Assembly: GCA_030536315.1 (NCBI GenBank) | Contig: JAUNQF010000004.1 | Location: forward strand, 14,244 to 78,243 | Reading direction: 5' to 3' | From: Coriobacteriia bacterium | Lineage (GTDB): Bacteria > Actinomycetota > Coriobacteriia > Coriobacteriales > Eggerthellaceae | Length of the DNA stretch: 64,000 bases | Shown here: in pieces, positions 2,664 through 64,000 of the stretch | Layout: each line of letters opens with the position of its first letter | Position numbering within the stretch: position 1 is the stretch's first letter | The notes under the pieces: generated by a model | Told to the model about the DNA's origin: nothing | What the model saw: the letters and a program-made list of their open reading frames with translations, nothing else | The model's database searches: none | Position numbers and translations under genes: made by a program

Positions 2664-2959
2664 GTCTCCTCCAAACTAATATAGCTTCTTTTGCTGACCT
2701 AGTCTTTGCCCCCACACTCGCGCATTGGAACATTCGGATTATTCCTTACTGCCCTCTCGCCCTGGCCAAGCCTTAAAAGCGATGCGACTTACAACCTAGA
2801 ACGCGCCATGATAAGCTTTCGCCTTACGTGGGTCCTTTTGGCCGCGTCTGCCCTGGACTTGAAAAGAAAACTTTTCTCAACTACAGTCCAAAAGAAGCGT
2901 GAACTATTTTATCAAAAGGCTATAACTTCAAACTCTAAAATTTCAAAAAATCAAAATAA

Positions 2960-38700: not shown

Positions 38701-40018
38701 AATATTTATATGCACCATAAAAGTATCTTGAGTAGTCATCATGAAATTCATTCCTGCTAGTGAGATTTTTAGAAGTTGCATCATATTTGCATTGAAGCTT
38801 AAATCCAAGAAGAACAATACTGTTAGATACTTTAGGCGAATCACATGTTAAGCCATCATCAGTTTTAGCAACAACAACAGTTGGTCTTTTAACAGAAAGA
38901 CAAACATTGTCAGAGTCTGAATCATAAACATACTTACTTTCAACATTGTTTTTGTTAAAAATATTATACGAATCAGTGTTGCCATTCGTATCAGCACCAT
39001 AACTAACAGACATATATGGGATAAAAGCTTTATAGTTATAGCCAGAGCTCGAATCAGGAATATCGCAAGAAGAAATAACGACCAAATCATCGACGGTATC
39101 AGCATTTACATCTCCTACAGCTAAACTGGCAAATATACAACCTTTACCAGTCTCCTTTTTGCTTCCAATACCATCATAAATAGATTTGCTGTTCTTCGTA
39201 TATTCAGGATTTAATAATGGGTGCGACATGTCCTCTATATTTTTTTCACTTATTGATATATTTCCAAATGCATTAGTTACCTGTAACTCTTGAAGATGAA
39301 AATCCTCGTAAGCACCATAAAACGTCACAAGTGTGTCTTTATGATCTTTATCAAAATCTCCTGCTACAATAGATAAATACGGCTCAGCCTCACAAAAATC
39401 AGTTACCGGATTATCTCCATTATTAACCCATGTCATTTTGCCAATCTCAATAGGGTTAGATCAAGTTTTACTTGTAGCATCCATAGCAATAACAACAACA
39501 CTTTTATTATATGTATTTCCATTATATGTACCTTCAAGAACAAAACCAATTACTGCAACATGATCATGCCTTCCTGTACCGTTAGGGTCAAAAGATACAG
39601 CATGGGTATAATCCATATGTAAAACAATGTCGGGAACACTAACTTTCTTTTCCTCAGATCCTGAATTTTTAAAGCTATCAGTTATTTTAGTATTAGTATT
39701 ACTTTCGGTAGAATTTAAAGTGTCATAAATAGAAGTATACGAAGCCTCACCAGCATTTTTTTGCTTTAATAAAAACAATTCGTCATTCTCAAGCATTGTA
39801 AAAGGCGTGCCAACACCAAAGCCATACGGATCATTATCCTTGTTGCTTGTATACCACGACGGTTTATTTTTCTCTTTAAAACTTTCATAAGTGTAAGTTT
39901 CGTCATTTTCAGCAGCAAAAGCTTTTTTTATTGGCGTAAACGAAACCACCATTAAAACAGAAACAATAACAGCAAGACATTTTTTAAATATGTCAGATTT
40001 ATATGTTGATTTATTCAT
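35762..40018 (-). CDS. 1418-aa type-I membrane-anchored surface protein with FG-GAP/integrin-alpha-like repeats
   Basis: Seven track ORFs plus four gaps form one frame, interrupted only by TGA at 39461, 38498, 38168, 37868, 37700, 37190, 37139, 36875, 36167 and 35957. All gaps were hand-translated with no TAA or TAG. AAAGGAG RBS. Signal peptide ...FTPIKKAFA-AEND. Repeats AGDFDKDHKDTLV, AVGDVNADTVDDLVV, AVGNFDGNDKGF and AVDNDQDGLL. FN3-like KAFKIKWEVPDGAENVKYQVY. C-terminal TM helix ILILVLCICVVLGLVIFFVV-RRKKK. Stop is TAA. Confidence 0.8.
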
Positions 40019-40087
40019 GATAGCTCCTTTCAAAGCCTTATAGAAATTATACACCTTTTTTATGTTTGAAAAGAGCCTTAAAAAAAA

Positions 40088-41188
40088 TTAGTATTCGATT
40101 TGGCGGTAGTAACGACGCATGTTTAATGGATGCTCAAGGAATAATTCCATATAAGCATCTACCCTGTTGTTAACTGCACGCAAAATATGATGACTTATGC
40201 TACCGCGATATTTCTCGTCGATGCCAGGCATATCGTAATCCTTCGTGTCTATTACAAAATGATTGTCATTAACCTTATCCAAGAATTTAACAACACGCTC
40301 AGATAAAACTCTCTGTTCGTCTTCGCCGACAAAAACTGTGACTGGAGTGTCTTCGTCAATAACTTCTAGCATGCCGTGAAAGAATTCTGGAGCCGTGATT
40401 GACTTCGTTCGAATTCACATTTGCTCTTCTCAATAACACATCGCATACGAATAAGTTGCTCCGTAATGATTCCCTGCACCTACAAAATATCTTGGATATG
40501 CAGGGTTTTTCTTAATACGCTCAACTTCGGACTTAGCAAAATTGAAGCCAAGTTCATCCGCAGCTTCTTCGACGTTTGCAAGGCCTTCGGCAAGCGATGC
40601 TTCCATTTGTTTGTTATACTCATCGTAATCTGGAAAATCGCCGTTTTTAAACATTAGATAATTACCAACCATATAAAACTTAAGCTGCTCATTTTCAGGA
40701 TAGCAAATTAAATAATCTTGATATTCGGGCTTTGTAAGTTCTGTGTCTGGAGTGTCTACAAAAGCAAAAATGCGAGTGCCTTGAGCTTTTACTGCCTTAC
40801 AAAATTCAATCATCTCAGCTGTTGTTCCGGAAACCGTTGAATAAATAACCAGAGATTTATCCGTCAGCTTTTTGTTGCCCGTGGTCAAATACTCTGCAGC
40901 ATTTTCAACGTAAACAGGAACATTAGATTTCCCACGCATATAAACTTCCAACTGCATAGAACTTGCTCAAGTGCCTCCAATTCCAACAAAGAAAATGTTA
41001 TCGAAACCAGCCTCCCAAACTTCGTCGATAATTTTTTCAATCTGCGGACGAAGCGCCAGTGCACCATTTATGCTATCAATCTTTTTTTGCCTATCAAAAT
41101 TACGAAGCGAAGGGCTCTCCTTCGACTCTGCCTTTAGAGCTTCGATTTTTTGTTTTGATTCTTCTGAACTTGGATGATTCTTATCCAT
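40088..41188 (-). CDS. SIS-domain sugar-amine isomerase/deglycase (FrlB-like)
   Basis: Three in-frame ORFs joined by TGA at 40967, 40430 and 40415. Contains FFVGIGGT-W-ASS and ...APEFFHGMLEV. AAGGAGG RBS. Confidence 0.7.
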
Positions 41189-41197
41189 AACTCCTCC

Positions 41198-46680: not shown

Positions 46681-49023
46681 TTATACGAATTTTGATTGAT
46701 ATTTATTGTACCAAATGTCTACGATCTTATAAAAAACGAAGAAAAGCCCGCACCCCACAGCGCAAGTTATGGCATGGAACAAGGCCATTTCTGTTGTGTA
46801 TTCTGCGATATTAAACAAATTGCCGAAGAAGACGCAACCCAAAATTGTGCCACCAACAATAACAATAATCAACCCGATGCGAATTGGCGTAAACGGAATC
46901 GATAGACGAATTACCAACATAAATCCAATAATAGACATCGTAAGCACGCACATTGTTGAAATTTGATCGTAATCAAAATTGAAAACGTTGTAGCCAATAA
47001 TATTTATAAACAAAATTGCAATCACTATCACGACCGCCGACGGGATAGACCTCACAATAACATTGGTCAAAAAATGCCCTTTAATCCTGTCGTGATTTGG
47101 CTCCAAGGCCAGTACGAATGATGGCACGCCAATAGTAAATGCCGAAATCAGCGTCATTTGAATTGGTTGGAATGGGTAACCTCAAGGCATGAATAAGAAA
47201 ATTAAGGCCAAAGACATCGAAAGTAAGGTCTTAACTAAAAATAACGAAGCCGAGCGCTGCAGGTTGTTTATGCTTCGCCTGCCTTCGGCAACAACATTTG
47301 TCATTGTTGCAAAATCATTCTCAAGCAAAACCAAGTGAGCAACATTTCTTGCAGCAGCACTCCCCGATGCCATTGCGATGCTACAATCCGCTTGCTTCAA
47401 ACTCAAAACATCGTTAACACCATCGCCAGTCATAGCAACTGTGTGGCCAAATTTTTGAAGCGCAACAACAAAGGCTTTCTTCTGTTCGGGCTTCACCCTT
47501 CCAAAAACAGCGAAGTTCTGGACCGCTTCGGCAATTTCTTCGTCAGTTTTAAGAGTAGTTGCGTCAACATATTTTTCAGCATTTGCAACACCAACCGTCT
47601 TCGCAATTCCAGAAACCGTGCGAGGGTCATCGCCAGAAATTACCTTGACGGTTACGCCTTCGTCCTGGAAAAACTTAATGGTGTCAGCAGCAGTTTCGCG
47701 AATTTCATCCTTAATGCAAATAAATCCAAGCGGTTTAGGCGTTCCCTTAATGTTGCCTTTATCGTCAAAGCCATCAACCTTTGCAACAAGCAAAACGCGC
47801 GAATCAACAGCCAAATCTTGAGCTTGCTTAACAACCGCGCCTTCGCTTGCGTTTAAAATAAACTGTGTTGCACCTTGAACATAGCAGCCTTCGCTAAATT
47901 CTGCACCACTTCATTTTTTATCCGAGGAAAAAGGGATGACCTTCTTCAAACTCAACTTGTCAGTCTTGTTGTCCTTAAAATAATTTTCAATTGCAAGCGC
48001 GGTCTCATTTTTGTCATCATCGGCATCGTTGATATTTTTGATGGCTCGGATAAGCTCGTCTTCGCTATCCTTCTTTATAGGAACAATTTTATCCAACAGC
48101 ATTTTCCCCGAAGTAATAGTCCCAGTTTTATCCGCACAAAAAACATCAACACGAGCCAACGTTTCAATGCAATAAAGTTGTTGAACTAAAACCTTGTGCT
48201 TCGCCAACCGCACAACCGCAACCGCTAAAACTGTTGACGTCAGCAAAATAAGTCCCTCAGGGATCATACCTATCATTGCCGAAACCGTTGTAAGAATAGA
48301 CTGGATTAGATCGATTCCGTTGAAGAAATAAGCCTTCGCAAAAAGCAGTGCACCCAGCGGAAATATGATGATAGAGATAATGCGAATAAGTCCGTTCATG
48401 GTTTCCATAATTTGAGAATTAACCATCTTATGGACCTTGGCTTCGGCAGTAATTTTATTAGCATAACTTGCAGCTCCAACATGCGTTACCTTTGCATAAA
48501 CTTTTCCACTATTGATAAAAGATCCACTCATGAGCTTACTGTCTTTTTGCTTCGCGATAAGATCGCTCTCGCCAGTAAGCAAGCTTTCGTTGCAATCACA
48601 AAAACCTTCAACAACAATACAATCCGCCGGAACTTGATCCCCGCGCCCAAGCTCAATAATATCGTCTTCAACAATTTCGTCACTATTAATCTCGAGAGTC
48701 TTCCCATCACGAAGCGCCTTAACCTTTGCTTTTGCAACAATGGTTAACTTGTCAGTTGTCTTCTTGCTTCGAATTTCCTGGATGATACCAATTGCTGTAT
48801 TGCAAACAATAACGCCCATGAAAAGCATGTTTTTGAAGCTACCTGTAAGTGCGACAATAATTGCAAGGATCACGTTGACAGCGTTAAACAAAGTGAAAAT
48901 ATTGTCGTAACAAATTCGTTTAACCGAACGAGTTTTCAAGCCTGCATCGGTATTAACCTTGCCAGCCTTAACTCTCTCCTCAACCTCAACGGAACTTAAA
49001 CCTGTTATTTTGCCTTCGCTCAA
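46681..49023 (-). CDS. Cation-transporting P-type ATPase (about 780 aa)
   Basis: One frame with TGA at 47911 and 47182. Motifs TGES, CADKTGTIT and MTGDGVNDVLSLKQAD. TTG start after AGGAG. Confidence 0.85.
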
Positions 49024-51797
49024 TTTTCTCCTGTCGCAATATCCACAACTAGCGGAACATCTAACTTGACTGCGTTTTCCATATCAGTCTTTACCAACTC
49101 GGTTACAGTATCAATTTCAGATTTATCTACCGACAAATCCAATTCATCGTGAACTTGCAACATAAGTTTCGATTTTAAACTTTGCTTACGCATAGATTCA
49201 CTAACGCGAATCATGGCAATCTTAATAATGTCGGCGGCGCTGCCCTGCATTGGATGATTCATTGCAGTTCTTTCTCCGAAGCCACGGAAGCGCTTGTTCG
49301 TTGCAGTCAACTCTGGAATGTAACGGCGTCGGCCGAACATCGTTTCAGCATAACCTTTGAGCGTTGCGTCTTCGACTACCCTATCTAAATACTTACGAAC
49401 TTGAGGATAACTATTAAAATAACTATCGATCATCTGCTTCGCTTCGCCCATACTAATCTTTAAACTTTGCGAAAGCCCAAACGCCTGCTGTCCATAAACA
49501 ATTCCGAAGTTTACCGCCTTCGCTTTACGGCGCATGTCTGGTGTAACTTTATCTACACTAACACCAAAAACGTTTGCAGCTGTGTGAGCGTGAAAATCAT
49601 TACCACTTGTAAATGCCTCAATTAATCCTTTGTCTTGAGATAAATGAGCAAGAACACGCAATTCTATCTGGCTATAATCTGCCGTTAGAAAGACTTCGTC
49701 TTTTTTAAGAGGCAGGAAGCATTCACGAATTTGATTTCCAAACTCACTTCGAGTTGGAATGTTTTGAATATTAGGATCACTTGAAGACAAGCGACCGGTT
49801 GTTGTTACCTTTTGATTGTAAGTTGTGTGAACTATATCATTCTTGTCTGCCAATGCTGGAAGTGCATCTATATAGGTTGATTTTAATTTTGCGTATTCGC
49901 GGTATTCAATAATCTTAGCCGGCAATGGATGGATGGCCGATAAATCAGCCAAGACTTCAGCGTCGGTCGAATAACCAGTTTTGGTTTTCTTCTTCGCTGG
50001 CAAGCCCAAAACTTCAAAGAGGATATGGCTTAACTGTTTTGGCGAATCGATGTTGAATTCTTCGCCCGCAAGCTCAAGAATTTCAGATTTCAAATGTTCC
50101 AAAAGTTTAGCTGTCTTGACACTTAACTTATCGAGCATAGCTCGGTCGATCTTTGTGCCAACAACTTGCATTTGAACAAGAACTTTTGTAAGCGGAATTT
50201 CAATGTCCTTATAAATTTTATCCGCGTTGTCTTCACTTAATCTCTTGTCTAAAAACTCTCTCAACGCAAACGAAGCAGCCGCACGGCGAGCAAGACGAAG
50301 TTGCAGAATCTTATTCTTTTTATCTATGAAAGATTGTTCAGTTTTCTTTTCGCCTTCCTCAGGTTCAATATCTAAAGTCGGAAGTAAACTTCCGAAGACT
50401 TGTTGCCATGCATCAACAGCACTATATTCACTCTTCGATGAATTTAGTAAATACGCAGCAAGACTAACATCATAAAAATTTAATTTATAAAAATTATCTG
50501 CGCTAATAAACTCGTCGAAAAGGACCTCAAAAATTGCTTTAGCATTTTCAGCAATCACTTCATGATTGGATTTTGCAATCTCAACTAAAATTTCAATAGC
50601 AGAGTCGCCTTCAAGGATTGCTGTCTCTTTATTGTTTGAGATTCCCAATAATAAATTCTTGAACTCAGGATATTCTGAAGCAATTTCCTCATCAAAAAGC
50701 GAAGTCTGAACAGGTGCTTCTTGCTTATGAGAAATTGCAATGGCAAAATCACCTTTAATTAATTTCTTGGAAAGAGCAAGTGCATCTTCGCCTTCGACAA
50801 AATTTTCAAAGACGAGTTTAGATTCTTTAAGCACAACTTTTTCTTCTTTTTTGATTGCAGGACTTGGTTGCGAAGGTTCCGCCTTCGAATCTTCAGGCAA
50901 AGATTCTTCCGGGACAACTCCAATCAATTTTAAAACTCCGCTCAAGGCAGAACGCATGCGGAACTTTAAAAAAGTTTCACTTACTGTGTCTTGATCGAAG
51001 TTAGGAAACGCGATGTTCTCCAAATCAATATCAATTGGAACATCCTTAGAAATTGTTGCAGCAGTACGACTAACATAAGCTGCTTCTTTATTATCACGAA
51101 TGTTTTCTTGCTGCTTGCCTTTAAGCTCATCAATATGTTCATAAAGCCCTTCAAGGCTTTCATATTTTTGCAAAAGCGCAGAGGCACTTTTTGGGCCAAT
51201 TCCAGGAACACCAGGAATGTTATCCGAAGAATCCCCCATTAGTGCAAGGTAATCAATGAATTGCTCAACGCTAACACCATATTTTTCCTTGACTTCAGCA
51301 GGACCTAGGATGGCAACATCGCTAACACCTTTTTTCATATTAACAATTTTGGTCAAATCAGTCGCAAGTTGGTTGGCATCCTTATCACCAGTCACGAGCA
51401 AAGTTTCAAAGCCAAGTTTTTCACACTTATCAGCAATGCTGCCTAAGACATCGTCGCCTTCCCAGCCTTCAACTTTAACAACTGGAATCCCCATGCTCTC
51501 AAGCATCTCTTCAATGATTGGAAATTGCAAACGAAGTTCATTATCCATAGGCTTTCGCTGAGCCTTATATTGCTCAACCGCCTCTAATCGAAATTGCGGA
51601 ATACCAGCATCAAATGCACAAATTACAGCATCTGGCTGAGCCTTTTCATAAAAGCTAAGAAACATATTCATAAATCCATGAACCGCATTCGTCGGCGTGC
51701 CATCAGCCAACTTCATCACAGGAGGCACCGCATGATACGCACGATGCGTTCACGAATTCCCGTCAATCACCGCTATTTTTTTTGTGCTTTTAGTCAT
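49005..51797 (-). CDS. polA: DNA polymerase I
   Basis: MTKSTKKIAVIDGNS-W(51750)-THRAYHA..., 5' nuclease and polymerase domains (QVHDELD). The track stop at 49020 is a TGA on the conserved C-terminal ...GENW...; the true TAA is at 49005. Confidence 0.92.
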
Positions 51798-52186
51798 GTC
51801 TCCAAAAAGAGCGAAGCCGCAACGCTGTCAACCTTGCCTCGCATTTCTTTCTCACTCAAACCTTGCTCGCGAAGAATCGCCTTCGCTTCGACAGAGCTCA
51901 AGCGCTCATCAACAAACTCAACCGGCAAGCCATAAAGGAGCGAAATCTCATCCGCAATATCTTTCACATGAGCAGCCTGAACGTTCTCTTCGCCGTCCAT
52001 CGACTTTGGCAAGCCAATAACAAACTTCTCAGGCAAATAGTCTTGCAAAATAAGTTGAAAATCTTTGGACTTATTCATTATATCGTCCAAGCTTAGAACT
52101 TTTAAGGGCGTAGCAATTTGACTGCTATCGTTACCCGAGGCGATACCAACTCGAGCATCCCCTATGTCAAGCGCTAAAACATTCAT
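51773..52186 (-). CDS. ruvX: Holliday-junction-resolvase-like YqgF/RuvX
   Basis: MNVLALDIGDARVGIA... Reads through TGA at 51794 (LFLET-W-LKAQKK) to TAG at 51773. Overlaps the polA start. Confidence 0.8.
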
Positions 52187-52189
52187 GAT

Positions 52190-54832
52190 TTATTTGAGCA
52201 AATCTTTCGCGATTTTCAAGGCTTCGGCGACACCTTCGGCTTTTGTGCCTCCAGCTTGAGCCATTCTATCTTGGCCACCGCCGCCACCATTAATGCAAGG
52301 CGAAATTTTCTTGATAATATCAACAGCGTTAAATCCTGCCTTAACAGCCTTCGAAGTTCCAGCCGCAAGCAGCAACACTTTCTCACCCTTCGTTCCTGCC
52401 AAAACAGCAGCACAATTATCACCGCAGTGATCAACAATTGCATCTCAATATTCTTTAAAGTCATAATTACGAATGTCTCCGCAATCAAGAACAAGACAGT
52501 CAAAACCCATACTCGACTTTTCCAAATCATCAAAAACTTCTTTGCGAATCATCGTCGATTGCTTGCTGTGAGAAAACTCAAGCTCCTTCTTCAGCTCTTT
52601 AACATTGGCAAGCATCTTTGAAACATTTTGAGTAAGCTGAGTCTTGTTGCCCTTCAAAAGCGAAGCAGCCTTATCCATTTCCGCAATCAAACCGGAAGTG
52701 TAATTATAAGCATCGTAGCTGGTGCAAGCCTCAATTCTGCGAGCATTCGCACCAACTGAACTTTCATTAATAATCTTAACGAAGCCAATCTCGCCGGTGT
52801 TTTTAACGTGACAACCACCGCAAAGCTCTTCGCTGAAATTACCAACATTAACAACGCGAACTTCTTCGCCGTATTTCTCGCCGAAAAGAGCAGTAACGCC
52901 CTTCGACCTTGCTTCCTTTAGACTTGTGTTATAAGTCTCAACATCAAAGGCACGCATAATTTGATCGTTCGCGAGTTTCTCAACCTCGGCAATTTGATCA
53001 GCGTTTAGCGCTTCAAAATGTGTAAAGTCAAAACGAAGACGATCCGGTGCAACATGCGAACCAGCTTGATTAACATGATCACCCAAGACCTCGCGAAGCG
53101 CCCAATGCAAAATGTGAGTTGCCGTATGGTTCCTAGTAATTCTTGCACGACGAAGCGCATCAACCTCAAGGTCAACTTTATCGCCAAGCTTAAAACTTCC
53201 ACCAACAACTTTAACACTGTGAGCAGTAAGTCCAGGTTCAGGAACAACAGTATCCACTACTTCAGCTTCGTTCTTTTCAGTATTACTAATGTATCCAGTG
53301 TCACCTACTTGGCCACCCATCTCCCCATAAAATGGAGTCTTTTCAACAACGATGCTTCCCTGGTCGCCTTTCTTTAAAGTTTTAACACGCTTGCCATCTT
53401 TTATAAGCGCAATAATTTTCGAAGAACATTCAAGCTCATCATAACCAACAAATTTTGTCGGTCCGTTTTCAGCGAGGATCTCGCCAGCAACACTTGCTTT
53501 AAGCTCCCAAGCAGCTTCCGCGTCTTCGGCATTTGCAGCACGAGCACGCTCAACTTGCTCTTTCATGCATTTTTCAAAGCCCTTTTCATCAAGCTTAAAT
53601 CCCTGCTCTTCGATAATTTCTTTAGTAACATCAATCGGGAAACCATAAGTATCATGAAGCTTAAAAGCTTGCTCCCCTGAAAGTTTCTTTGTTTTGTCGG
53701 CAGACTTTAGAAAGTCATCCAAAAACTGAGTGCCTTGATTCAAAGTTTGACCAAAGCGCTCCTCTTCAGAAAGAACAACTCGTTTGATTAGCTTTTCATT
53801 ATCAACAACTTCTGGGTAAGTTTCACCCATAAGCTTAATTACTTCGTCAATAAACTTGCTTAAGAACGGACCTTCAAACCCAAGCAAATAGGCCTTCATG
53901 ACAGATCGCCTTAGCAAGCGGCGGAGCACGTATTCGCGGCCTTCGTTACCAGGCAAAATACCGTCAGCAATCATAAAAGTAATCGCACGCGAATGATCCG
54001 CAATAATGCGCAAACTCAAATCGCTCTTTTTATCCGCGCCATATTTAACGCCGAAGAGCTTCTCGCCAACTGCAATAAGGCTCTTCATAATATCAGTTTC
54101 ATAATTCGAAGACACACCTTGCATGATTGCAGCCATGCGCTCAAGACCCAAGCCAGTGTCAATATTTTTCTTGGGAAGAGGCTTTAACGTTCCGTCTTCT
54201 TGTCCATCATATTGAGTAAAAACCAAATTCCAGTATTCTAAGAATCTATCACAATCACAACCTGGTGCACAGTCCTTTTTACCGCAACCAAATTCTTCGC
54301 CTTGATCATAATAAAGTTCAGAACAAGGGCCACAAGGACCAGTTGGACCAGCACGCCAGAAATTATCTTCGTCACCAAGTTTAACTATATGGCTATCGTC
54401 AACTCCAAGCTTCTTTCAAATTTCGATGCATTCATCATCGTCTTTATAAACGCTGAAATAAAGCTTTTCAAACGGAAGCCCCAAAACGTCCAACGAAAAT
54501 TCAAGCGCCCACTGACACATTTCCTTTTTGAAATACTGACCAAAGCTAAAATTACCAAGCATCTCAAAAAATGTTAAATGCCTGCCTGTGGTACCAATAA
54601 TGTCAATATCATTTGTGCGAACACACTTTTGAACAGTTGCAGTCCCGATAAATTCCTTCGGCAATTTCTTTTGTTGCAAAAAGTATGGCTTGAACTGAAC
54701 CATTCCAGCACTTGTCAAAAGAAGCGATGGATCATCAGGAATCAGCGAAGACGAAGGCATCACCTTCGAACCTTTATCTTCGAAAAACTTTAAAAACTTA
54801 GAACGTATTTCAGCAGTGGTCATAAACTTCAT
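52190..54832 (-). CDS. alaS: Alanyl-tRNA synthetase
   Basis: Three in-frame ORFs joined by TGA at 54416 (on the conserved ...EIW...) and 52445. Contains FFEMLGNFSFG and GPCGPCSE, plus a C-terminal DHHA1 domain. Confidence 0.95.
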
Positions 54833-54847
54833 GCTACCCCTACTGGT

Positions 54848-58433: not shown

Positions 58434-58509
58434 GGACCGGTAGCTCAGCTGGCAGAGCAGCGGACTCTTAATCCGAAGGTCCGGGGTTCGAAACCCCGCC
58501 GGTCCACCA
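58434..58509 (+). tRNA. tRNA-Lys (anticodon CUU), CCA encoded; island insertion site
   Basis: GGACCGGTAGCTCAGCTGGCAGAGCAGCGGA-CTCTTAA-TCCGA...GGTTCGAAACC...CCA. Confidence 0.9.
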
Positions 58510-58791
58510 CTAAAAAACCTGCTACAACTCCATTTTTTGCACATTAAAAATTATAAAAATTGTTATAGTGTGTAATAAAATGTAAGATGAATTTTTTTTG
58601 AGGATTTTTTAATCCTATAATTTGTATTTATTGGTAATTTGATATTTCTATATATACATATATACAGAATCATCATTAATAAAATAAAATAGAGGATTAA
58701 CATAAAATTGATTTATACAATTGGCTTTTCATTTGCATAAAAGACTCTAGCCTTTTTTGCTCAAGTAGCACTTTTTTTTCAAGCAGCATAA

Positions 58792-59403
58792 AAAAGACTA
58801 TACAACAAAGAGGAGCTAAAAGAAGTCTTATTAAAAATAAAAGATACAGAGTGAGCCCTTCCTGTACTACTAGAATGCGTTTGTGGGTTAAGACATGAGG
58901 AGTTCTGTGGATTAAATAAAAGAGATGTTATGTTTGAAAATAATTGTGCGTATGTTGAAATTACTCAAGCACTCACTGAAGTTGATGGGCGTAAAGTACT
59001 AAAAGAACCAAAAACAGAAACAAGTGCGCGTACAGTAGTCCTTACAGAAGACTTTTTAGATTATTTAATTGAACAATATCCGCGAATAAGAAATAAACGC
59101 ACATTAGATGAGTATGCCTATCCTATTAGCCTAACAAAACGCTGAAGAACATATTGCAGAAACAACGAATTGCCTTATGTCACATTTGGAAATATGAGAT
59201 CAGTATATGCAACACTATGCTCTGAAGCTGGATGTTTAGATAGTCTTGTCTGTAAAACAATGGGTCATACTGGTCAAACAATTAAAGAAAGAAATTATCA
59301 ATCTTCAACATTGAAAGCTCTAAAAGTTAATGCTGAAATACTTGCAGAGTATATTGGTTTTAAATACAACTCCCCTAATGTTATATCTTTAAATGAAATC
59401 TAA
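58792..59403 (+). pseudogene. Tyrosine recombinase (phage-type integrase) remnant, catalytic domain only
   Basis: The frame is open only from the TAA at 58789: ...EELKEVLLKIKDTE-W-ALPVLLECVCGLRHEEFCGL...RSVYATL...MGHTGQTIKERNYQ (R...R...H...Y). Two in-frame TGA at 58852 and 59143. There is no N-terminal core-binding domain and no start codon before 58930. The upstream 280 nt are AT-rich with stops in every frame. Confidence 0.6.
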
Positions 59404-59472
59404 TTAAATCAATTAACTCAAAGAAAAAATTATAACTAAACAAACCAGTATCAAATTTACTCATGCCGAAAA

Positions 59473-60657
59473 TCAAGAACTTCTACATATAGAAATAATA
59501 AATCGCTGATTATTATTTAATCCATATGTAAGCCAAACTCTCCTTGTTGACAAAACGCCAATAAAAATACTTATTGTAATAAATACAATACAAAGAAAAT
59601 ATATAATAAAATCTTCACCGTTAGAAAATTTGGTTGTTAAGGCAGCCTTGTTAATAAATAAAATCACATTAAAAATAACAGAAGTTAAAATAGACGAAAA
59701 AATTCCGGCAAGTTTAATTAATATATTTTTTCAATTCTTTTTTTTCGAATTATCTGAACTATTATTAGTGGAATTATTGGCATCATAGATTCCTTTATAA
59801 ACATTTTCTCTGTCAAGATTAATATGATGATCTAATAAAAACGCCTCATAAGCTAAAAAAGCACCATAATCAGATTGTTTTCGGGAAAGAGCTTCTTTGG
59901 CGATTTCTGCAATAAATCCATCTGAATCTTGATATATACCAGCAAGTCGCAATGCGTTTTTTACATACTCTGGAGCTCTTGGATTATCGGCAAAAACTCT
60001 TGTTCCGTGAGTTTTTTTATAAACAGATTGAAACGTTGATTCGTTAAAAACTTTAGGTTTAATATAGCTACTATAATGATATGCAACTCAAGCAAGAATA
60101 AGTGAAATTGGAGGGCATACTGGACATATAATTGATGTAAATAATCCCAGCAAAGAAGAAAGCGTAAACGCCATGCCGTCTTTAATAGTTGATAAAGGTA
60201 AACAGCCAATAATATAGCCAATAGAAATTCCACCTATAAGTGAAAATAACAAAGTCCCGTAAGTGCAAGACCAAAATTGACTATTAACAAAAAGGTCTGA
60301 TGATAGATTGGATGAAAAAGCCAACAGTATTAACAAAACAGCTCCGACAATAGAAAATATTGTTGACCATTTTGTACATGTCTTAACTCTATTATGCTTT
60401 TCTATTCTAATTTGATTAATGTAGCGTCTATACTCATTATTATAACTAATTTGTTTTTCAACTTCTTCTATATGAGCTTGCGGAATAGCAGCTTTCAACA
60501 AAGCAGAAGCAACTATAAAAGTCCCAAGTTCAGAATCTTCTGCAGTTCTAATTCTCGATTTCAGTACAGGAACCCAGGTTTCATATTCATTGGAAATAAC
60601 ACAATAACTTAATGCTCTTTCTTTTCAATTTTCTATATTAATTAAACTTAAGTCCAT
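59473..60657 (-). CDS. Hypothetical multi-pass membrane protein (394 aa), last gene of the kinase operon
   Basis: ATG at 60657, 9 nt after the kinase TAA. One frame through TGA at 60625, 60088 and 59731. A soluble N-terminus of about 95 aa, then hydrophobic segments (WSTIFSIVGAVLLILLAF, TLLFSLIGGISIGYIIG, FTLSSLLGLFTSIICPV...), a soluble loop of about 130 aa, and 2-3 C-terminal TM helices. Confidence 0.6.
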
Positions 60658-60666
60658 AACAACCTT

Positions 60667-62397
60667 TTATTGTTCATACGCCTTAATAAATAGTTCAGGA
60701 AGAGCATCCTTGAATGCCTTGTCAGCAATTTTTTGTTTCTCTTTTGGAACAAGTTTTTTTACATTCTCACTCTGAAGATATCAAGTCTTTAATTGAACAC
60801 CAACACTACCAGCTAATTTATCTTCCTTATAACTCCCATACAGAATTAAGCCATCACATTTAACTAGACCATACAACCATTGCTTTGCATCCTCATCACC
60901 GTTATATGCTTTAGTAATTTGTTCTTGAATTGTGTTTTGATCTAATCTATAAGAAGCATATATCGGATTATTTTCTTTATCAATCATAAGCTGAAATTCC
61001 AATAGTTTCTTTTCTGGTGATTTATTACTATTTAACAATTCTATAGCTGGAGCTGCATCGTGAAAATTAGATAAAAATTCTTTAATGTCTCCAGCAACTC
61101 TACCAATCAATCCCTTTTTTGCCTCATCCCAATTTTCTCCAAAAGACCAGGCAAGGTGCAAAGGTGTTGCAATTAAATCCTCTTCTCAAGGAGCAAAAAA
61201 ACAATCTTCAGGAGAAAAGCCTGCTACTCCTCCCTTAGCGACAACCCAGTATATATCGGGATTTTCCCCACGCAATCACTTTTCTATTTCTTCAAAGCCT
61301 CAACGATGTTCCTTTTCGTAAGTAACCAATCCTTTAATTAAATTTCTTCATCGTTCAGCAGGGATATTATCTTCGTTAACATTTTTGTAATACAATCCAC
61401 GATCACAATTTCTTTGAGCCTGTATATCTGTTGGTTTAGGATTTCTTTTATCGCCCAATAATTTACGATTGGTAAATAGTTCAAAAATAATAGCACCTAA
61501 AGCAAACCAATCTGATTTTGCAGTAATATGATACTCGTATACTTCAGGCGCAGTATACGTTTTTGTTCCAGCAAAATGTTTTGTACGCGAAGTGATATCT
61601 TGTTTATCCCGAGCTATACCAAAATCCGTTAAAACAAGATCCAGTGGTTCAATCGAACGAATAAGTATGTTTGAAGGTTTGATATCTCGATGAGCGATAG
61701 TACCTTTTACTTGATGTATATTATGGATTGCCTTGCTTACCTCAACCAGAAAATCTTTAATAAATTTTTCTTCATACGGACCCTTATTATTATTCGCTCA
61801 TTCTCCTCAAGAAATTGAACCTAGGGGACAATACTCATGAATTTCTCAAGCTCTCTCTCGTTTATTCCCCACACTAAAATCAATAATTTCAACAACATCA
61901 TTCCTGCTGCACTTGTTCTGTATTAAGCTCAATACACTACCATCAGGCTGAATACCTTTGTGATACAATTTGAAAAAATAATTCCTTCCTGTATCGCGTC
62001 GCCTTATAATAAATACATCAGATTCACCACCAGGGTACTCAAGCTCTTCAACAATTTCATAATCACGATTTAAACTAGCAGGCAGATTATCGTAATGCTG
62101 AAAAGGTCTTCAGGCTCTACGAGGGTTATCGTTTTCAATCACGGTAGAAGGATTTTCATTATAAGTTGAATCGTTATAATCGTTATTCTCATCATCTTCC
62201 ACAAATGTTATCTCATTATCTTCGCGAAGTGTATTATTAGTCTCTCTTTCTGTTAAAGACGCATTTCCTGAAACTGAATTCGATTGATTTTCCTCAGATT
62301 CTCTAAATGTTCCATCTTCTCGTAAAGTAAATTGTTCTTCTTGCTCACGAACTGTATTATCAAAATTAGCATTTTCTCTTTCTGTTCTACCGCTCAT
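60667..62397 (-). CDS. Hanks-type Ser/Thr protein kinase (576 aa): TxRE-repeat N-terminal tail and an unknown soluble C-terminal domain
   Basis: One frame with 9 TGA (62110, 61846, 61807, 61798, 61348, 61300, 61276, 61186, 60781), which is why the track shows almost nothing between 61162 and 62109. Motifs GGESDVF, FFKLY, HRDIKPSNIL, DFGIA, TYTAPE and ...HRWGFEEIEKWLRG. AGAGGA RBS. TAA at 60667. Confidence 0.85.
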
Positions 62398-62409
62398 TTT
62401 AAATCCTCT

Positions 62410-63153
62410 CTAAAGACGTTCAACCTTTATTAAAATTGCAGAACAATTATCCGAAGCATTATTTTCGACACACAACTTCATTAAGTGTTCTATAGCTTCA
62501 TTAACGTTAGAAAAGTTTGCAATAGTATCACATATCAAATCTTCACCTAATGTTCCTCATACACCATCTGAGCATAATAGAAATTTTTCATATTCATATA
62601 AATTATCAGAAAACCAATGTATGTCTAAATCTTCTTCTCTAAAACCCAATGATTGAGTTATTCCTCCGTTTCCGTTTTTCAAGCGATCATCAATAGACAA
62701 TTGAGTGATAAATTCATCATTGTCATCATAACGATATATTCTGCAATCACCAATATTAGCAATGATAAATTTTTCTCTATTTAAAGTAATCATAGAAAAA
62801 GCAGCGCCCATTTTTGGAGTATCTCAAGCTATTCCAGCTTTTAAAATTTTATTAGACAAATCTTCAAAATATAGTTTATCTGCATCTTCATATTCATTAC
62901 TAAGATTATATTTAGAAATCGAAGAAGAGGCTATACATGCCGCATCAGAGCCTCCATCATACCCTCCCATACCGTCAATTACAGCATAGGAAACAGGTAT
63001 ATTAGCATCGTTTACTGTATCATATAATAAAAATGACCTTTGAGTACATTTACCATTTATAACGATTGCATCCTGGTTTTCTGATCGATTCGGTCCGCAT
63101 ATTGTCATGCCTGCTACTTTTATGCTGCTGCTTGTATTATCGTTTTCCACCAT
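62410..63153 (-). CDS. PP2C-family Ser/Thr phosphatase (247 aa)
   Basis: NQDAIV, VIDGMGGYDGGSDAA, IIANIGDCRIYR and LLCSDGV-W-G. TGA at 62824 and 62557. AAGGAG RBS. TAG at 62410. Confidence 0.85.
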
Positions 63154-63164
63154 GAAAGCTCTCC

Positions 63165-63785
63165 TTAGATTCTAACTTCTAACTTAACACGCATACTTGG
63201 CTTATGTCCTAATCAAATATTTATCGGCAATGGGTATGTTTGCCCATTTATTACTTTTGTTTCTCCATCACCAATATAAGTTCCATTAGTTGAGCCATTG
63301 TCATTAATCGTAATAGAACAACTAGAATAATCTATTCTAATATAGCAATGCTCACGAGAAACATTATTACGTTCACCTAAAGCATTTTTAATTTCTGACA
63401 CATCACTTTCCCTGCCAATTAAATAATCTTTTCCGCTTTCTAACCTTAAATCTAATCCATTTGGTAAAACTAAAAACGCTGCATCTATTGAAACATTTTG
63501 AGAAGAAGTACACAACGATTCATTGGGTATTATTTTTCCGCACTGAATGCATTCCTCACCAGGTTGCCCAGGGGCACCACAATTTGTACACCGAGCTTCT
63601 GATGTGCTTAATTCCGAATAGTCACTAGAAGAATCCTCGCAGCAAGAATCCTCTAAAACCTGTTCTTCTTCTATATTTTCTTCAATATTTTCTTCTTTTA
63701 CAGGTTTAAAAGTATTGCAACAATGACTGCAATAATAATTTTCATCAAGAGCTCTTTCGCACTGTGGACAAATTAATTCTGCCAT
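63165..63785 (-). CDS. Double zinc-ribbon plus FHA-domain protein
   Basis: CPQC...CSHC and CTNC...CIQC, then an FHA core YLIGRESDV...VSREHCYIRID...ITINDNGSTNGTYIGD. Reads through TGA at 63213 for 15 more codons to TAA at 63165, just before the PP2C RBS. Confidence 0.85.
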
Positions 63786-64000
63786 GTTTTTCCTCCTAAT
63801 ACAATTCCTTTACTCCTTAACTTTTTATCAATGATATCAAGATCTCCAGAATTTGGCATTCCAGCAAAAGTAATACCTGAAGAATCTAGCTTAAACTGTA
63901 TTGGTACATCATTTTTTGCTAAATACTCATCATAAATATCTTCAAATTGTTTGTCTATTATCACAAGCTCTTGATTATCACTAGAAACCAAACAATTAGT
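63773..64000 (-). CDS. Unknown protein, 3' end only (5' part outside the window); first visible gene of the operon
   Basis: The frame is open to the window edge (...TNCLVSSDNQELVIIDKQFEDIYDEYLAKNDVPIQFKLDSSGITFAGMPNSGDLDIIDKK...TWQN-TAA). Its end overlaps the FHA gene ATG by 13 nt. Confidence 0.5.
   Translation of the reverse strand, partial: TNCLVSSDNQELVIIDKQFEDIYDEYLAKNDVPIQFKLDSSGITFAGMPNSGDLDIIDKKLRSKGIVLGGKTWQN

What the first reader, a model, noticed from the sequence alone, without database searches (positions are those of the whole stretch)
58510..64000. AT-rich island at tRNA-Lys carrying an FHA / PP2C / Ser-Thr kinase / membrane-protein operon: candidate undescribed accessory (defence-like) system
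**Setting.** The sequence directly 3' of tRNA-Lys(CUU) becomes visibly AT-richer; rough hand counts give about 30-33% GC on sampled 60-nt lines. About 280 nt from the tRNA lies a decayed tyrosine-recombinase gene. This is the classic tRNA-integrated island layout.

**The operon.** The rest of the window is one minus-strand operon with translational-coupling distances:
- An unknown gene overlaps the FHA gene by 13 nt.
- FHA to PP2C: 11-nt gap.
- PP2C to kinase: 12-nt gap.
- Kinase to a 394-aa multi-pass membrane protein: 9-nt gap.

**Why it looks accessory.** The kinase has no TM segment or PASTA repeats, so it is not a PrkC/PknB-type growth kinase. It carries about 180 aa of an unrecognised soluble C-terminal domain.

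**Precedent.** Reversible pThr switches of this kind (kinase, PP2C and an FHA reader) gate the P. aeruginosa T6SS (PpkA/PppA/Fha1). A stand-alone eukaryotic-like kinase (staphylococcal Stk2) mediates abortive phage infection.

**Interpretation.** A mobile-island copy ending in a membrane protein is a plausible sensor-switch-effector module that I cannot assign to a named system. The upstream end of the operon lies outside the window.
Basis: partly seen in the sequence, partly recalled or inferred. Interest (0 to 1): 0.75.

Follow-up and report, generated by a model that had tools for sequence, protein, structure and literature searches.

The report
Partial kinase-switch cluster beside tRNA-Lys
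The end of this window holds the last four and a half genes of a rare accessory cluster of about twelve genes (a kinase with its separate membrane partner, a phosphatase, a phosphothreonine reader, and upstream a radical-SAM enzyme and an unfolding ATPase), sitting in a foreign-looking island next to a tRNA gene in a gut actinobacterium that reads TGA as tryptophan; its function is untested, but it looks like a threat-sensing relay rather than housekeeping.

Summary
**Observation: confirmed.**
- tRNA-Lys(CUU) lies at 58434-58509, followed by a drop in GC (0.33 against 0.41; GC3 about 0.20 against about 0.36).
- A truncated tyrosine-recombinase gene follows the tRNA.
- Read with TGA = Trp, there is an intact minus-strand FHA / PP2C / Ser-Thr kinase / membrane-protein operon.

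**Host.** It is an Actinomycetota using genetic code 4, most likely an Equivita/Gorillivita-type Eggerthellaceae.

**The operon is not a four-gene module.**
- It is the 3' end of a conserved cluster of 12-13 genes seen in relatives.
- Its core is an SGPK coiled-coil protein, a ClpB-type AAA+, an NrdG-like radical SAM enzyme, ZnF-FHA, PP2C and a kinase. This core recurs in Gordonia and other Actinomycetota.
- The truncated first gene in the window is the radical-SAM gene.

**The membrane protein.** In one relative the kinase carries a matching segment followed by membrane helices, and most family members are long enough to hold such a part. It is therefore more likely the kinase's own membrane module than an effector.

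**The kinase.** Its N-terminal tail carries six T-x-R-[E/D] repeats, which are plausible FHA docking sites.

**Classification.** Nothing matches a named defence system. The kinase and phosphatase are not PknB/Stp1 orthologues.

**Closest known logic.** Esr, TerY-P and vWA-AAA+ conflict modules. Function is inferred, not shown.

The parts
58434..58509 (+). tRNA-Lys(CUU), the putative integration site and left border of the AT-rich segment
   Evidence: - ARAGORN and Rfam tRNA at 67 bits.
- Two public contigs that are 100% identical to the window both stop at 58490, inside this gene.
- No second copy of the tRNA 3' end exists in the window.
58510..58791 (.). AT-rich spacer between the tRNA and the recombinase remnant, with no convincing ORF
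   Evidence: - Sequence read directly.
- GC of 58510-59412 is 0.296.
58792..59403 (+). Truncated tyrosine recombinase (catalytic domain only; two TGA = Trp codons; no start codon, N-terminal domain missing)
   Evidence: - Pfam Phage_integrase, E = 2.4e-6, protein residues 25-170 on profile positions 28-166 of 172.
- tblastn finds about 27% identity to temperate-phage integrases, E about 1e-10.
- GC3 is 0.197, the same as the cluster genes.
59413..60657 (-). g12: a 414-aa multi-pass membrane protein with two soluble helical segments and about 6-7 TM helices. It is probably the membrane part of the kinase, encoded separately.
   Evidence: - Hydropathy peaks at about residues 93-122, 134-158, 162-194, 311-341, 344-376 and 392-414.
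- No Pfam, PADLOC or NCBIfam hit.
- Only 3 homologue clusters in the large protein database.
- An HMM of g12 hits residues 552-616 of the 889-aa kinase of L089.
- It is split into two genes in L085.
- The AlphaFold model is unusable (pLDDT 44).
60667..62397 (-). g11: a 576-aa Hanks-type Ser/Thr kinase with three parts: an acidic N-terminal tail with six T-x-R-[E/D] repeats (about residues 1-105), a kinase domain (about 110-375) and an all-alpha C-terminal domain (about 380-576)
   Evidence: - Pkinase, E = 3.3e-30.
- K143, HRD, DFG and APE are invariant among 11 orthologues.
- Nine TGA codons, six of them on Trp columns that are invariant or at least 90% conserved.
- T-x-R-[E/D] counts: 6 in the tail and 0 in the rest of the protein; 3-9 in seven of the ten closest homologues.
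- C-terminal domain model: pLDDT 87.3, with no PDB fold match (best E = 2.6).
- The C-terminal domain family has 1037 representatives.
62410..63153 (-). g10: a 247-aa PP2C-type Ser/Thr phosphatase
   Evidence: - PP2C_2, E = 5.8e-8, and PP2C, E = 2.6e-7.
- The motifs N-x-D, DGMGG, N-x-GD, DG and DN are invariant across 8 orthologues.
- It scores 96.7 bits against the Stp1 equivalog cut-off of 230, so it is not an orthologue.
63165..63785 (-). g9: a 206-aa adaptor with two CxxC...CxxC zinc ribbons, an acidic linker and an FHA domain
   Evidence: - FHA, E = 3.6e-8.
- The phosphothreonine-binding residues GR, S-R-x-H and S-x-N-x-T are invariant.
- The orthologue in L089 is fused to the radical-SAM protein.
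63773..64000 (-). g8: the C-terminal 75 codons of an NrdG-like radical-SAM protein, cut by the window end. It overlaps the FHA start by 13 nt.
   Evidence: - It aligns to the C-terminus of the Fer4_12 proteins of L001, L084, L085, L002, L096 and L097, with invariant S..NQ, GD, G and W.
- The full-length orthologue scores Fer4_12 at 7e-27 and NrdG TIGR02491 at 88.6 bits, and has the CxxxCxxC motif.

Best explanation
**What it is (shown)**
- The window ends inside an accessory gene cluster carried on a compositionally foreign segment next to tRNA-Lys.
- The host is an Eggerthellaceae-type actinobacterium that reads TGA as Trp.
- The four complete genes and the truncated fifth are the downstream part of a conserved cluster.
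- The cluster's core is: an 'SGPK' coiled-coil protein, a two-tier AAA+ ATPase (degenerate first tier, ClpB-D2-like second tier), an NrdG-like radical-SAM enzyme, a zinc-ribbon-FHA adaptor, a PP2C phosphatase and a receptor-type Hanks kinase.
- In this lineage the kinase is separate from the membrane part that it carries in at least one relative (g11 + g12).

**How it most likely works (inferred)**
1. The membrane module g12, docked to the kinase's all-alpha C-terminal domain, reports a disturbance at the envelope, such as an invader or surface damage.
2. The kinase phosphorylates the threonines of the T-x-R-E repeats in its own N-terminal tail.
3. The FHA adaptor docks on these pT-x-x-E sites.
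4. This brings or releases the radical-SAM enzyme and the AAA+/SGPK pair, which produce the still unknown output.
5. PP2C erases the signal.

In Eggerthellaceae an upstream block is added: a membrane protein, a peptidoglycan-binding OmpA-like protein (a lipoprotein by its N-terminal sequence), coiled-coil proteins, a membrane pseudokinase and a vWA protein. The overall role is most likely conflict or threat sensing rather than growth control.
For: **Anatomy**
- The same gene order occurs in three loci of 40%, 45% and 59% GC, and in Adlercreutzia aquisgranensis.
- The core recurs in Gordonia sp. and in two other lineages.

**Functional coupling, from gene fusions**
- The radical-SAM and FHA proteins are one 368-aa protein in L089.
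- The 889-aa kinase of L089 matches a g12 HMM at residues 552-616, E = 1.9e-5 in a 128-sequence search.
- Most of the 1037 relatives of the kinase C-terminal domain are 800-950 aa. Nine of the 15 I read show the same order by eye: kinase, C-terminal domain, a D-D-D-L-G-x-L motif and hydrophobic stretches.

**Catalytic competence**
- The kinase, PP2C and FHA motifs are invariant.

**Docking sites**
- The window kinase has 6 T-x-R-[E/D] in its first 105 residues and 0 in the other 471. Seven of the ten closest homologues have 3-9.
- An acidic residue at pT+3 is a classical FHA preference (Rad53 FHA1; established knowledge).

**Accessory or conflict character**
- The compositional shift and the integrase remnant.
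- Rarity in the databases.
- A decayed deletion derivative exists.
- A STAND NTPase replaces the upstream block in L089.
- PDC-S01 defence candidates flank the cluster in L001 and L002.
- The cluster has different neighbours in every locus, and none of the 11 relatives' loci has a tRNA.

**Not housekeeping**
- NCBIfam scores are far below the PknB and Stp1 cut-offs.

**Precedent**
- The Esr pathway of Actinomycetes couples vWA + AAA+ + kinase + PP2C to an FHA output protein that is phosphorylated on threonine when an epibiont attacks (PMC13622651).
Against: - No experiment bears on this cluster, and every step of the mechanism is inference.
- The upstream genes are seen only in relatives. Whether this genome has them is unknown, because the window ends at 64000 and the contig could not be extended.
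- No effector of a recognisable kind (nuclease, pore, NADase) was found. No glycyl-radical motif is present for an NrdG-like activase to act on.
- No gene of the cluster matches a PADLOC or NCBIfam system model, apart from generic kinase and ClpB-type ATPase domain hits.
- The deletion derivative keeps the kinase, g12 and the upstream block but loses FHA, PP2C, the radical-SAM enzyme and the AAA+. The two halves might therefore work independently.
- The kinase-g12 fusion rests on one weak HMM hit in one locus plus a reading by eye of other long family members; six of the 15 long proteins read do not show the layout, and none of the long kinases P0011-P0016 was hit by the g12 HMM.
- The g12 model failed (pLDDT 44), and its internal repeat is not statistically supported.
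- The defence-gene neighbourhood evidence rests on three loci.
Confidence: 0.4

Rival explanations
1. A phospho-switch that gates an envelope-spanning machine, as the PpkA/PppA/Fha1/ClpV pathway gates the type VI secretion system. In this reading the upstream Eggerthellaceae genes (membrane protein, OmpA-like protein, coiled-coil proteins, membrane pseudokinase, vWA) build a surface or secretion apparatus. The AAA+ remodels it, and the kinase, FHA and PP2C decide when it assembles.
For: - The OmpA-like protein has a peptidoglycan-binding domain, and its N-terminal sequence in L088 reads like a lipoprotein signal (sequence read).
- Other parts fit: the multi-TM g0, the long coiled coils and the TM pseudokinase.
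- The AAA+ scores 212 bits on the ClpV1 model and 227 on ClpB.
- PpkA itself combines a kinase with a vWA domain (established knowledge).
Against: - No sheath, tube, spike or any known secretion component is detectable in the clusters.
- The upstream block is absent from the Gordonia, L089 and L097 versions, which keep the core.
- Type VI systems are not known in monoderm Actinomycetota.
- The radical-SAM enzyme has no place in this picture.
Confidence: 0.2
2. One reading: a self-contained abortive-infection cassette. The soluble kinase senses phage, and the terminal membrane protein is the toxic effector that kills the cell.
For: - Stand-alone kinases do mediate abortive infection (Stk2, PD-T4-6). 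The kinase domain hits PD-T4-6 and mad6 models.
- The membrane protein has no known family.
- The segment looks like an island.
Against: - The PADLOC hits cover only the generic kinase domain.
- The cassette is the end of a much larger conserved operon.
- In L089 the kinase itself carries a segment matching the membrane protein, and most family members are long enough to do the same. This is the layout of a receptor kinase, not of a toxin kept apart from its regulator.
Confidence: 0.12
3. A lineage-specific housekeeping regulator of growth, division or wall synthesis, comparable to the FhaA/FhaB-PstP-PknA/PknB operon. It would merely lie next to a dead integrase.
For: - Actinobacteria use kinase, PP2C and FHA sets for wall and division control (established knowledge).
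- The FHA orthologue weakly matches FhaB/FipA (36 bits).
- The OmpA-like wall-binding protein in the cluster fits this role.
Against: - Scores are far below the orthologue cut-offs.
- There are no PASTA repeats, and no rodA or pbpA neighbours.
- The family has about 10 clusters with 1-5 member sequences each among 5.8 billion proteins, while Eggerthellaceae genomes are numerous.
- A natural deletion derivative occurs in 8 contigs; the four shown come from four samples.
- GC3 is 0.20 against 0.36 for core genes.
Confidence: 0.1
4. A decaying remnant with no current function. A once-mobile element lost its integrase and is eroding in a reduced genome.
For: - The integrase is truncated.
- Relatives show erosion: the L092-95 deletion, the AAA+ gene split into three called pieces in L089, and no vWA gene called in the 611-nt gap at the expected place in L088.
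- The host lineage is undergoing genome reduction (PMC13462651).
Against: - All four complete genes are intact under code 4, keep every catalytic or binding motif, and retain coupling distances of 9-13 nt.
- The kinase of a second code-4 organism is 73% identical in protein sequence and full length, and the neighbouring PP2C gene is also called complete on that contig.
Confidence: 0.08

Closest known systems
Esr (epibiont sensing and response) pathway of Actinomycetes (Wang et al. 2026, bioRxiv, PMC13622651)
   Same: - It is an actinobacterial gene cluster that combines a vWA protein, an AAA+ ATPase, a Ser/Thr kinase, a PP2C phosphatase and an FHA-domain output protein. The FHA protein often carries zinc-finger domains.
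- Output runs through threonine phosphorylation.
- It is linked to biological conflict.
   Different: - Esr uses a MoxR-type AAA+. Here the ATPase is ClpB-D2-like (AAA_2) with a degenerate first tier.
- Esr has a secreted beta-propeller/Ig sensor (EsrA) and a transglutaminase (EsrD). Neither was found here.
- Esr has no radical-SAM gene or SGPK protein.
- Esr is reported as confined to the class Actinomycetes, whereas this host is Coriobacteriia-type.
TerY-P triad (vWA TerY + PP2C + Ser/Thr kinase; Anantharaman et al. 2012; anti-phage in Gao et al. 2020, as summarised in PMC11090510)
   Same: - A vWA protein, a PP2C and a Hanks kinase share one operon.
- It is proposed to act as a phosphorylation switch, and is sometimes extended by inserted ATPases.
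   Different: - The TerY-P kinase carries a C-terminal zinc ribbon or OB fold. Here the C-terminal domain is a new all-alpha fold, and the zinc ribbons sit on the FHA protein.
- The vWA gene is five genes away from the PP2C and is absent from the Gordonia, L089 and L097 versions.
- No PADLOC TerY-P model was listed for the PP2C or vWA proteins.
Threonine-phosphorylation pathway of the P. aeruginosa H1 type VI secretion system (PpkA / PppA / Fha1 with ClpV1)
   Same: - A membrane kinase, a PP2C, an FHA protein and a ClpB-family AAA+ in one locus.
- The kinase is associated with a vWA domain and with peptidoglycan-binding partners.
   Different: - No type VI structural genes are present.
- The host is a monoderm.
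- A radical-SAM enzyme is present.
- The AAA+ has only one active tier.
vWA-MoxR ternary and GAP1-N2 conflict systems of Kaur, Burroughs, Iyer and Aravind 2020 (PMC7159879)
   Same: - NTPase + vWA cores with kinase, FHA and PP2C accessories, found in Actinobacteria.
- One actinobacterial theme links an active kinase (zinc ribbon or TM), a PP2C and a stand-alone vWA.
   Different: - The defining MoxR or GAP1-N2 NTPases, the VMAP component and the effector-associated domains are absent here.
- The radical SAM domain named in that paper belongs to FtsH ternary systems, not to this architecture.

Membership tests
Housekeeping PknB/PrkC-type kinase with Stp1/PrpC/PstP phosphatase | The kinase reaches the equivalog score and has a TM segment plus extracellular PASTA repeats | tested here: not met
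   - NF033483 PknB_PASTA_kin scores 61.9 bits against a cut-off of 450.
- No PASTA hit in Pfam.
- No TM segment in the kinase.
Housekeeping PknB/PrkC-type kinase with Stp1/PrpC/PstP phosphatase | The phosphatase reaches the Stp1/IreP equivalog score | tested here: not met
   NF033484 scores 96.7 bits against a cut-off of 230.
TerY-P triad | A TerY-like vWA protein with a MIDAS motif in the same operon as the PP2C and the kinase | tested here: inconclusive
   - A small vWA protein (DxSxS in 2 of 3 loci; Pfam VWA only E = 0.014) lies five genes upstream of the PP2C in L001, L084, L085 and L092.
- It is absent from L089, L096 and L097.
- That part of this genome lies outside the window.
TerY-P triad | The kinase has a C-terminal zinc ribbon or OB fold, and the proteins match TerY-P models | tested here: not met
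   - The C-terminal domain is all-alpha with no PDB match.
- No TerY-P model is listed for the PP2C or vWA proteins in PADLOC.
- Only the best 25 of 34 kinase-domain hits were shown, so a weak TerY-P kinase hit cannot be excluded.
Esr pathway | A kinase, a PP2C and an FHA-domain output protein in one cluster | tested here: met
Esr pathway | A MoxR-family AAA+ paired with vWA | tested here: not met
   The ATPase in relatives is AAA_2 / ClpB-D2-like (Pfam E = 2e-43; TIGR03346 at 227 bits), not MoxR.
Esr pathway | A surface sensor EsrA (beta-propeller plus Ig repeats) and a transglutaminase EsrD | tested here: not met
   No such domains appear in any gene of the clusters in L001, L084, L085, L088 or L092.
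Type VI secretion threonine-phosphorylation pathway | Adjacent type VI structural genes (TssB/C, Hcp, VgrG, baseplate, TssM) | tested here: not met
   No Pfam or NCBIfam hit of that kind in the clusters.
tRNA-integrated genomic island | Lies directly 3' of a tRNA gene, has an integrase gene next to it, and has deviant composition | tested here: met
   -.
- The integrase remnant shares the low GC3 of the cluster (0.197).
tRNA-integrated genomic island | A direct repeat of the tRNA 3' end at the far border | not testable with these tools
   - No repeat exists within the window, and the far end lies beyond 64000.
- The contig could not be extended.
tRNA-integrated genomic island | Present in some strains of the lineage and absent from others | tested here: inconclusive
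   - Two contigs from other samples match the core side at 100% and both end at 58490, inside the tRNA. No identical island protein is in the database.
- A second code-4 organism carries the cluster at 74% nucleotide identity.
- No genomes of close relatives could be fetched.
Named anti-phage defence systems (PADLOC-DB v2) | System-specific models hit on more than the generic kinase or ATPase domain | tested here: not met
   Only kinase-domain hits (mad6, MkoA, PD-T4-6) and ClpB-like hits (PDC-M37B, DolB) were found. Nothing was found for FHA, PP2C, g12, the radical-SAM protein, vWA or g0-g6.

The most novel reading that the evidence does not exclude
The six-gene core is a widespread, uncatalogued threat-sensing or immune pathway of Actinomycetota. 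The core comprises the SGPK coiled-coil protein, a ClpB-type AAA+ with a dead first tier, an NrdG-like radical-SAM enzyme, a zinc-ribbon-FHA adaptor, a PP2C and a receptor kinase with a new all-alpha domain. In this reading, phosphothreonine docking on the kinase's T-x-R-E repeats licenses a radical-SAM/AAA+ reaction as the output. That kind of output is not known for any Hanks-kinase pathway or any defence system.
Probability: 0.3. Interest if true: 0.8.

Novelty: new variant of a known kind. Interest (0 to 1): 0.55.

Why it matters
**If the inferred mechanism holds**
- It would link bacterial Hanks-kinase, PP2C and FHA signalling to a radical-SAM enzyme and an unfoldase. No characterised pathway has that pairing.
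- It would add a second actinobacterial 'threat relay' family beside the newly described Esr pathway.

**What the work provides now**
- It defines a sizeable uncharacterised domain family: the kinase C-terminal domain, with about 1000 representative sequences, no Pfam model and no structural neighbour.
- It gives directly testable predictions: the T-x-R-E phospho-sites, FHA docking, and kinase-g12 pairing.

**Significance in this host**
- The cluster sits in a reduced, recoded (TGA = Trp) gut symbiont and is itself written in that code.
- So accessory islands do circulate among code-4 Eggerthellaceae despite the barrier that the code poses to exchange with code-11 neighbours.

Tried and rejected
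**Attempts to extend the contig or find close relatives**
Its table-11 fragment is not on record.
- The single genome-contig scan, run with a full-length kinase alignment, was swamped by generic kinases. It returned neither the source genome nor Adlercreutzia. A scan with the C-terminal domain alone was rejected for lack of a conserved stretch.
- Both JGI metagenome scans and one IMG/VR scan found no relative.

**Searches for a known fold or motif**
- No glycyl-radical motif R-[VIT]-[CSAT]-G-[YFW] occurs in the genes of five clusters; the only six-frame match lies out of frame with the called gene. A classical glycyl-radical partner for the NrdG-like enzyme is therefore unlikely.
- PDB profile searches with the SGPK protein, the AAA+ N-terminal tier and the kinase C-terminal domain gave only chance-level hits.
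- The AlphaFold model of the membrane protein was too poor to search (pLDDT 44).

**Tests that were not informative**
- An internal duplication in g12 is not supported by pairwise alignment (score 38 against shuffles of 33 +/- 5).
- Promoter and terminator scans showed no enrichment.
- TGA makes up a larger share of Trp codons in the island (17/27 against 61/146), but only at p = 0.057.

**Ideas dropped**
- My initial recollection that vWA + PP2C + kinase is the 'ternary system' of Kaur et al. was wrong. That name belongs to vWA-MoxR-VMAP. The right precedent is the TerY-P triad.
- Code 25 (TGA = Gly) was rejected because TGA aligns with conserved Trp: PolA 'GENW', AlaRS 'EIW', and kinase columns that are invariant or at least 90% conserved.

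Full report
**1. What is in the sequence**

ARAGORN and Rfam place tRNA-Lys(CUU) at 58434-58509 on the + strand. GC per kilobase is 0.37-0.47 over most of the window and 0.30-0.36 from 58 kb to the end.

Table-11 ORF calling breaks the region into fragments. The whole window, however, uses TGA as a sense codon:
- ORF coverage rises from 18,080 to 28,551 codons when TGA is read through.
- Housekeeping genes carry in-frame TGA at conserved Trp positions (PolA '...GENW', AlaRS '...EIW').

Read this way, the minus strand from 64000 down to 59413 holds one tight operon:

| Gene | Coordinates | Product | Junction with the next gene |
|---|---|---|---|
| g8 | 63773-64000 | partial gene, cut by the window end | overlaps the g9 start by 13 nt |
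| g9 | 63165-63785 | zinc-ribbon-FHA protein | 11-nt gap |
| g10 | 62410-63153 | PP2C | 12-nt gap |
| g11 | 60667-62397 | 576-aa kinase | 9-nt gap |
| g12 | 59413-60657 | 414-aa membrane protein | last gene |

- Pfam confirms FHA (3.6e-8), PP2C (about 1e-7) and Pkinase (3.3e-30).
- Nine TGA codons lie in the kinase. Six fall on Trp columns that are invariant or at least 90% conserved among homologues. The island genes are therefore themselves written in code 4.
- Between the tRNA and the operon lies a + strand ORF (58792-59403) that matches only the catalytic half of a tyrosine recombinase.

**2. Host**

- RpoC matches Streptomyces and Mycobacterium beta' in a single stretch over residues 7-1260. 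Firmicute enzymes match only from residue 237 onwards, or in separate pieces. This suggests that the N-terminal region is of the actinobacterial type.
- A raiA RNA is present.
- An actinobacterium that reads TGA as Trp fits the recently described Eggerthellaceae genera Equivita and Gorillivita. These come from mammalian stool and have genomes of 0.8-1.9 Mb and 31-40% GC (PMC13462651).
- The assignment is an inference. The window's core GC (0.41) lies just above the published range.

**3. Is it an island?**

*For:*
- It lies directly next to the tRNA.
- The recombinase remnant has the same GC3 (0.197) as the cluster genes (0.18-0.215). The other ORFs are at 0.24-0.57.
- Two public contigs from other samples are 100% identical to the core side (glyA and flank). 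Both end at 58490, inside the tRNA. No identical island protein is in the 5.8-billion-protein collection.

*Limits:*
- No repeat of the tRNA 3' end lies in the window, and the far border is beyond 64000.
- Assembly breaks at tRNA genes can have other causes.
- I could not obtain genomes of close relatives.
- A second code-4 organism carries the same genes at 74% nucleotide identity and 33% GC (L083). The cluster therefore circulates, or is inherited, within code-4 lineages.
- In more distant relatives the cluster has different neighbours each time, and none of 11 loci has a tRNA.

**4. The operon is the tail of a much larger conserved cluster**

Full-length relatives of the kinase are few (P0001-P0010). 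Their contigs show one gene order in genomes of 40%, 45% and 59% GC (L084, L001, L085):

| Gene | Product | Notes |
|---|---|---|
| g1 | OmpA-like protein | peptidoglycan-binding domain; N-terminus in L088 reads like a lipoprotein signal |
| g2 | about 250-aa protein | no known family |
| g3 | coiled-coil protein | |
| g4 | pseudokinase with C-terminal TM helices | only weak kinase-model hits |
| g5 | small vWA protein | DxSxS motif in 2 of 3 loci |
| g6 | coiled-coil protein | invariant N-terminal S-G-P-K and a conserved C-terminal domain |
| g7 | AAA+ ATPase | first tier lacks a Walker A motif; second tier is ClpB-D2-like |
| g8 | NrdG-like radical-SAM protein | CxxxCxxC; Fer4_12 at 7e-27 |
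| g9-g12 | FHA, PP2C, kinase, membrane protein | the genes in the window |

- A further membrane protein, g0, precedes g1 in Adlercreutzia aquisgranensis and in L092.
- The window's truncated first gene aligns to the last 75 residues of g8.

**5. Core, variants and fusions**

- The block g6-g7-g8-g9-(g10)-g11 recurs without g0-g5 in Gordonia sp. (L096), in L097 and in a 68% GC lineage (L089-L091).
- In L089 a STAND NTPase (DUF4062 + AAA_16/NACHT) takes the place of the upstream block.
- In L089 the radical-SAM and FHA proteins are one 368-aa polypeptide.
- In L089 the kinase is 889 aa. An HMM of g12 hits its residues 552-616, and by eye hydrophobic, membrane-like stretches follow.
- A profile of the kinase C-terminal domain finds 1037 representative proteins (307 at E <= 1e-10). 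Most are 800-950 aa. Of the 15 I read, nine show the same order by eye:
  1. a Thr-rich repeat tail;
  2. the kinase domain;
  3. the C-terminal domain;
  4. a D-D-D-L-G-x-L-V-V-A motif of the kind found at the N-terminus of g12;
  5. an R/E-rich coiled coil;
  6. long hydrophobic stretches.
- The single-chain, receptor-like form may thus be the common one, with the Eggerthellaceae g11 + g12 pair a split version. This rests on one HMM hit and on reading by eye. It argues against g12 being a separate toxic effector.
- L085 splits g12 further into two genes.
- L092-L095 are a deletion derivative. They retain g0-g5, the kinase and g12, but only a 26-aa FHA remnant and a 61-aa PP2C remnant. The cluster is therefore dispensable and can erode.

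**6. Competence of the switch**

- The kinase keeps K143, HRD, DFG and APE.
- The PP2C keeps N-x-D, DGMGG, N-x-GD, DG and DN. The FHA domain keeps GR, S-R-x-H and S-x-N-x-T.
- The kinase tail holds six T-x-R-[E/D] motifs in 105 residues and none in the remaining 471. Seven of the ten closest homologues hold 3-9, and more distant ones carry T-R-R-E or T-T-L-E-G-R repeats.
- FHA domains read pT together with the +3 residue. An acidic +3 is the classical Rad53-FHA1 preference (established knowledge). The tail is therefore a plausible multivalent docking site for g9. This step is inferred, not shown.

**7. The unknown parts**

- *Kinase C-terminal domain:* modelled from P0001, which is 77% identical to the window over this domain, with nine homologues. 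It folds confidently (pLDDT 87.3) into an all-alpha domain with no structural neighbour in the PDB (best E = 2.6) and no sequence match.
- *g12:* the model failed (pLDDT 44). Hydropathy gives about 6-7 TM helices in two groups, each preceded by a soluble helical segment.
- *g6 and the first tier of g7:* no PDB sequence relatives.
- *Radical-SAM partner:* no glycyl-radical motif is present in the cluster genes.

**8. Comparison with known systems**

- Neither PADLOC nor NCBIfam assigns any system. Only generic kinase-domain and ClpB-like hits appear.
- The kinase and PP2C are far below the PknB and Stp1 equivalog cut-offs.
- The closest logic is found in:
  - the Esr pathway (vWA + MoxR + kinase + PP2C with an FHA output, responding to epibionts; PMC13622651);
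  - the TerY-P triad (PMC11090510);
  - the actinobacterial kinase/PP2C/vWA theme of Kaur et al. (PMC7159879);
  - the type VI PpkA/PppA/Fha1/ClpV pathway (established knowledge).
- In each case at least one defining component was tested and not met (see the membership table). The cluster works like these systems but is not a member of any of them.
- Literature searches for the combination radical SAM + FHA + PP2C + kinase + AAA+ found no description.

**9. Conflict context**

- PDC-S01 defence-candidate genes flank the cluster in L001 (283 bits) and L002 (183 bits).
- A type I methyltransferase fragment lies in L001.
- A PDC-S33-like RelA/SpoT protein lies near the L089 cluster, and a HerA/mad8-like ATPase lies in L096.
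- This evidence is suggestive, but it rests on few loci.

**10. Verdict**

- The most likely role is a membrane-anchored threat-sensing or envelope-sensing phospho-relay, whose FHA adaptor couples to a radical-SAM enzyme and an AAA+ unfoldase. My confidence in this mechanism is about 0.4; my confidence in the anatomy is high.
- The cluster is an undescribed variant of the kinase/PP2C/FHA (+ vWA/AAA+) conflict-signalling theme.

Noticed in passing
whole window (for example 49005-52070 polA, 52190-54847 alaS, 60667-62397 kinase): The genome reads TGA as Trp (code 4), yet its RpoC is actinobacterial. This fits the Eggerthellaceae genera Equivita and Gorillivita described in 2025-26 (PMC13462651). 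The window's core GC (0.41) is slightly above their published range of 31-40%.
   Followed up: partly
window 2685-2897 (-): A raiA RNA motif (RF03072) scores 131.7 bits against a gathering score of 101.3. It is a complete match.
   Followed up: no
window 35762-40087 (-), with 40088-41197 (-): This is a second AT-rich patch (GC 0.32-0.35, GC3 0.237). It encodes a 1441-aa protein with 10 TGA codons, an N-terminal signal-like segment and a C-terminal TM anchor. It may be a fast-evolving or acquired surface protein. It is not adjacent to the kinase cluster.
   Followed up: no
window 14862-19322 (-): RpoC is 1486 aa long. The PDB actinobacterial beta' subunits align only up to residue about 1260, which leaves a C-terminal extension of about 225 aa with no match.
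   Followed up: no
window 58490 (inside tRNA-Lys); loci L086 and L087: Two Logan contigs from different runs (SRR24915801, SRR24915793) are 100% identical to the glyA side, and both stop at exactly 58490, 19 nt before the tRNA 3' end. This would fit a repeated or variable attachment core starting near 58460. It could also be an assembly effect of conserved tRNA sequence.
   Followed up: partly
L089 12061-13167 and 13994-16663 (also L090 and L091): Gene fusions occur in a 68% GC relative. The radical-SAM and ZnF-FHA proteins form one protein, and the kinase carries a g12-like segment at its C-terminal end. The AAA+ gene there is called as three pieces, which suggests frameshifts.
   Followed up: yes
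L092-L095 (for example L092 6619-7100): This is a natural deletion derivative of the cluster, carried by 8 contigs (the four shown come from four samples). Genes g6-g8 are gone, and only a 26-aa FHA remnant and a 61-aa PP2C remnant remain between the vWA gene and the kinase.
   Followed up: yes
g6 orthologues: L001 4672-5970, L084 4543-5832, L085 4691-5905, L088 8805-10001, L089 8850-10004, L096 5720-6889, L097 4128-5345: The N-terminus S-G-P-K is invariant in all seven sequences, directly after the initiator Met in six of them. It is followed by a variable coiled coil and a conserved C-terminal domain with an invariant Cys. No family or structure matches it. It could be the substrate or partner of the AAA+ or the radical-SAM enzyme.
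   Followed up: partly
protein P0145: This 1027-aa protein joins two zinc ribbons, of the type found on the FHA adaptor, directly to the kinase C-terminal domain without any kinase. This hints that the zinc ribbons and the C-terminal domain belong to one interaction network.
   Followed up: no
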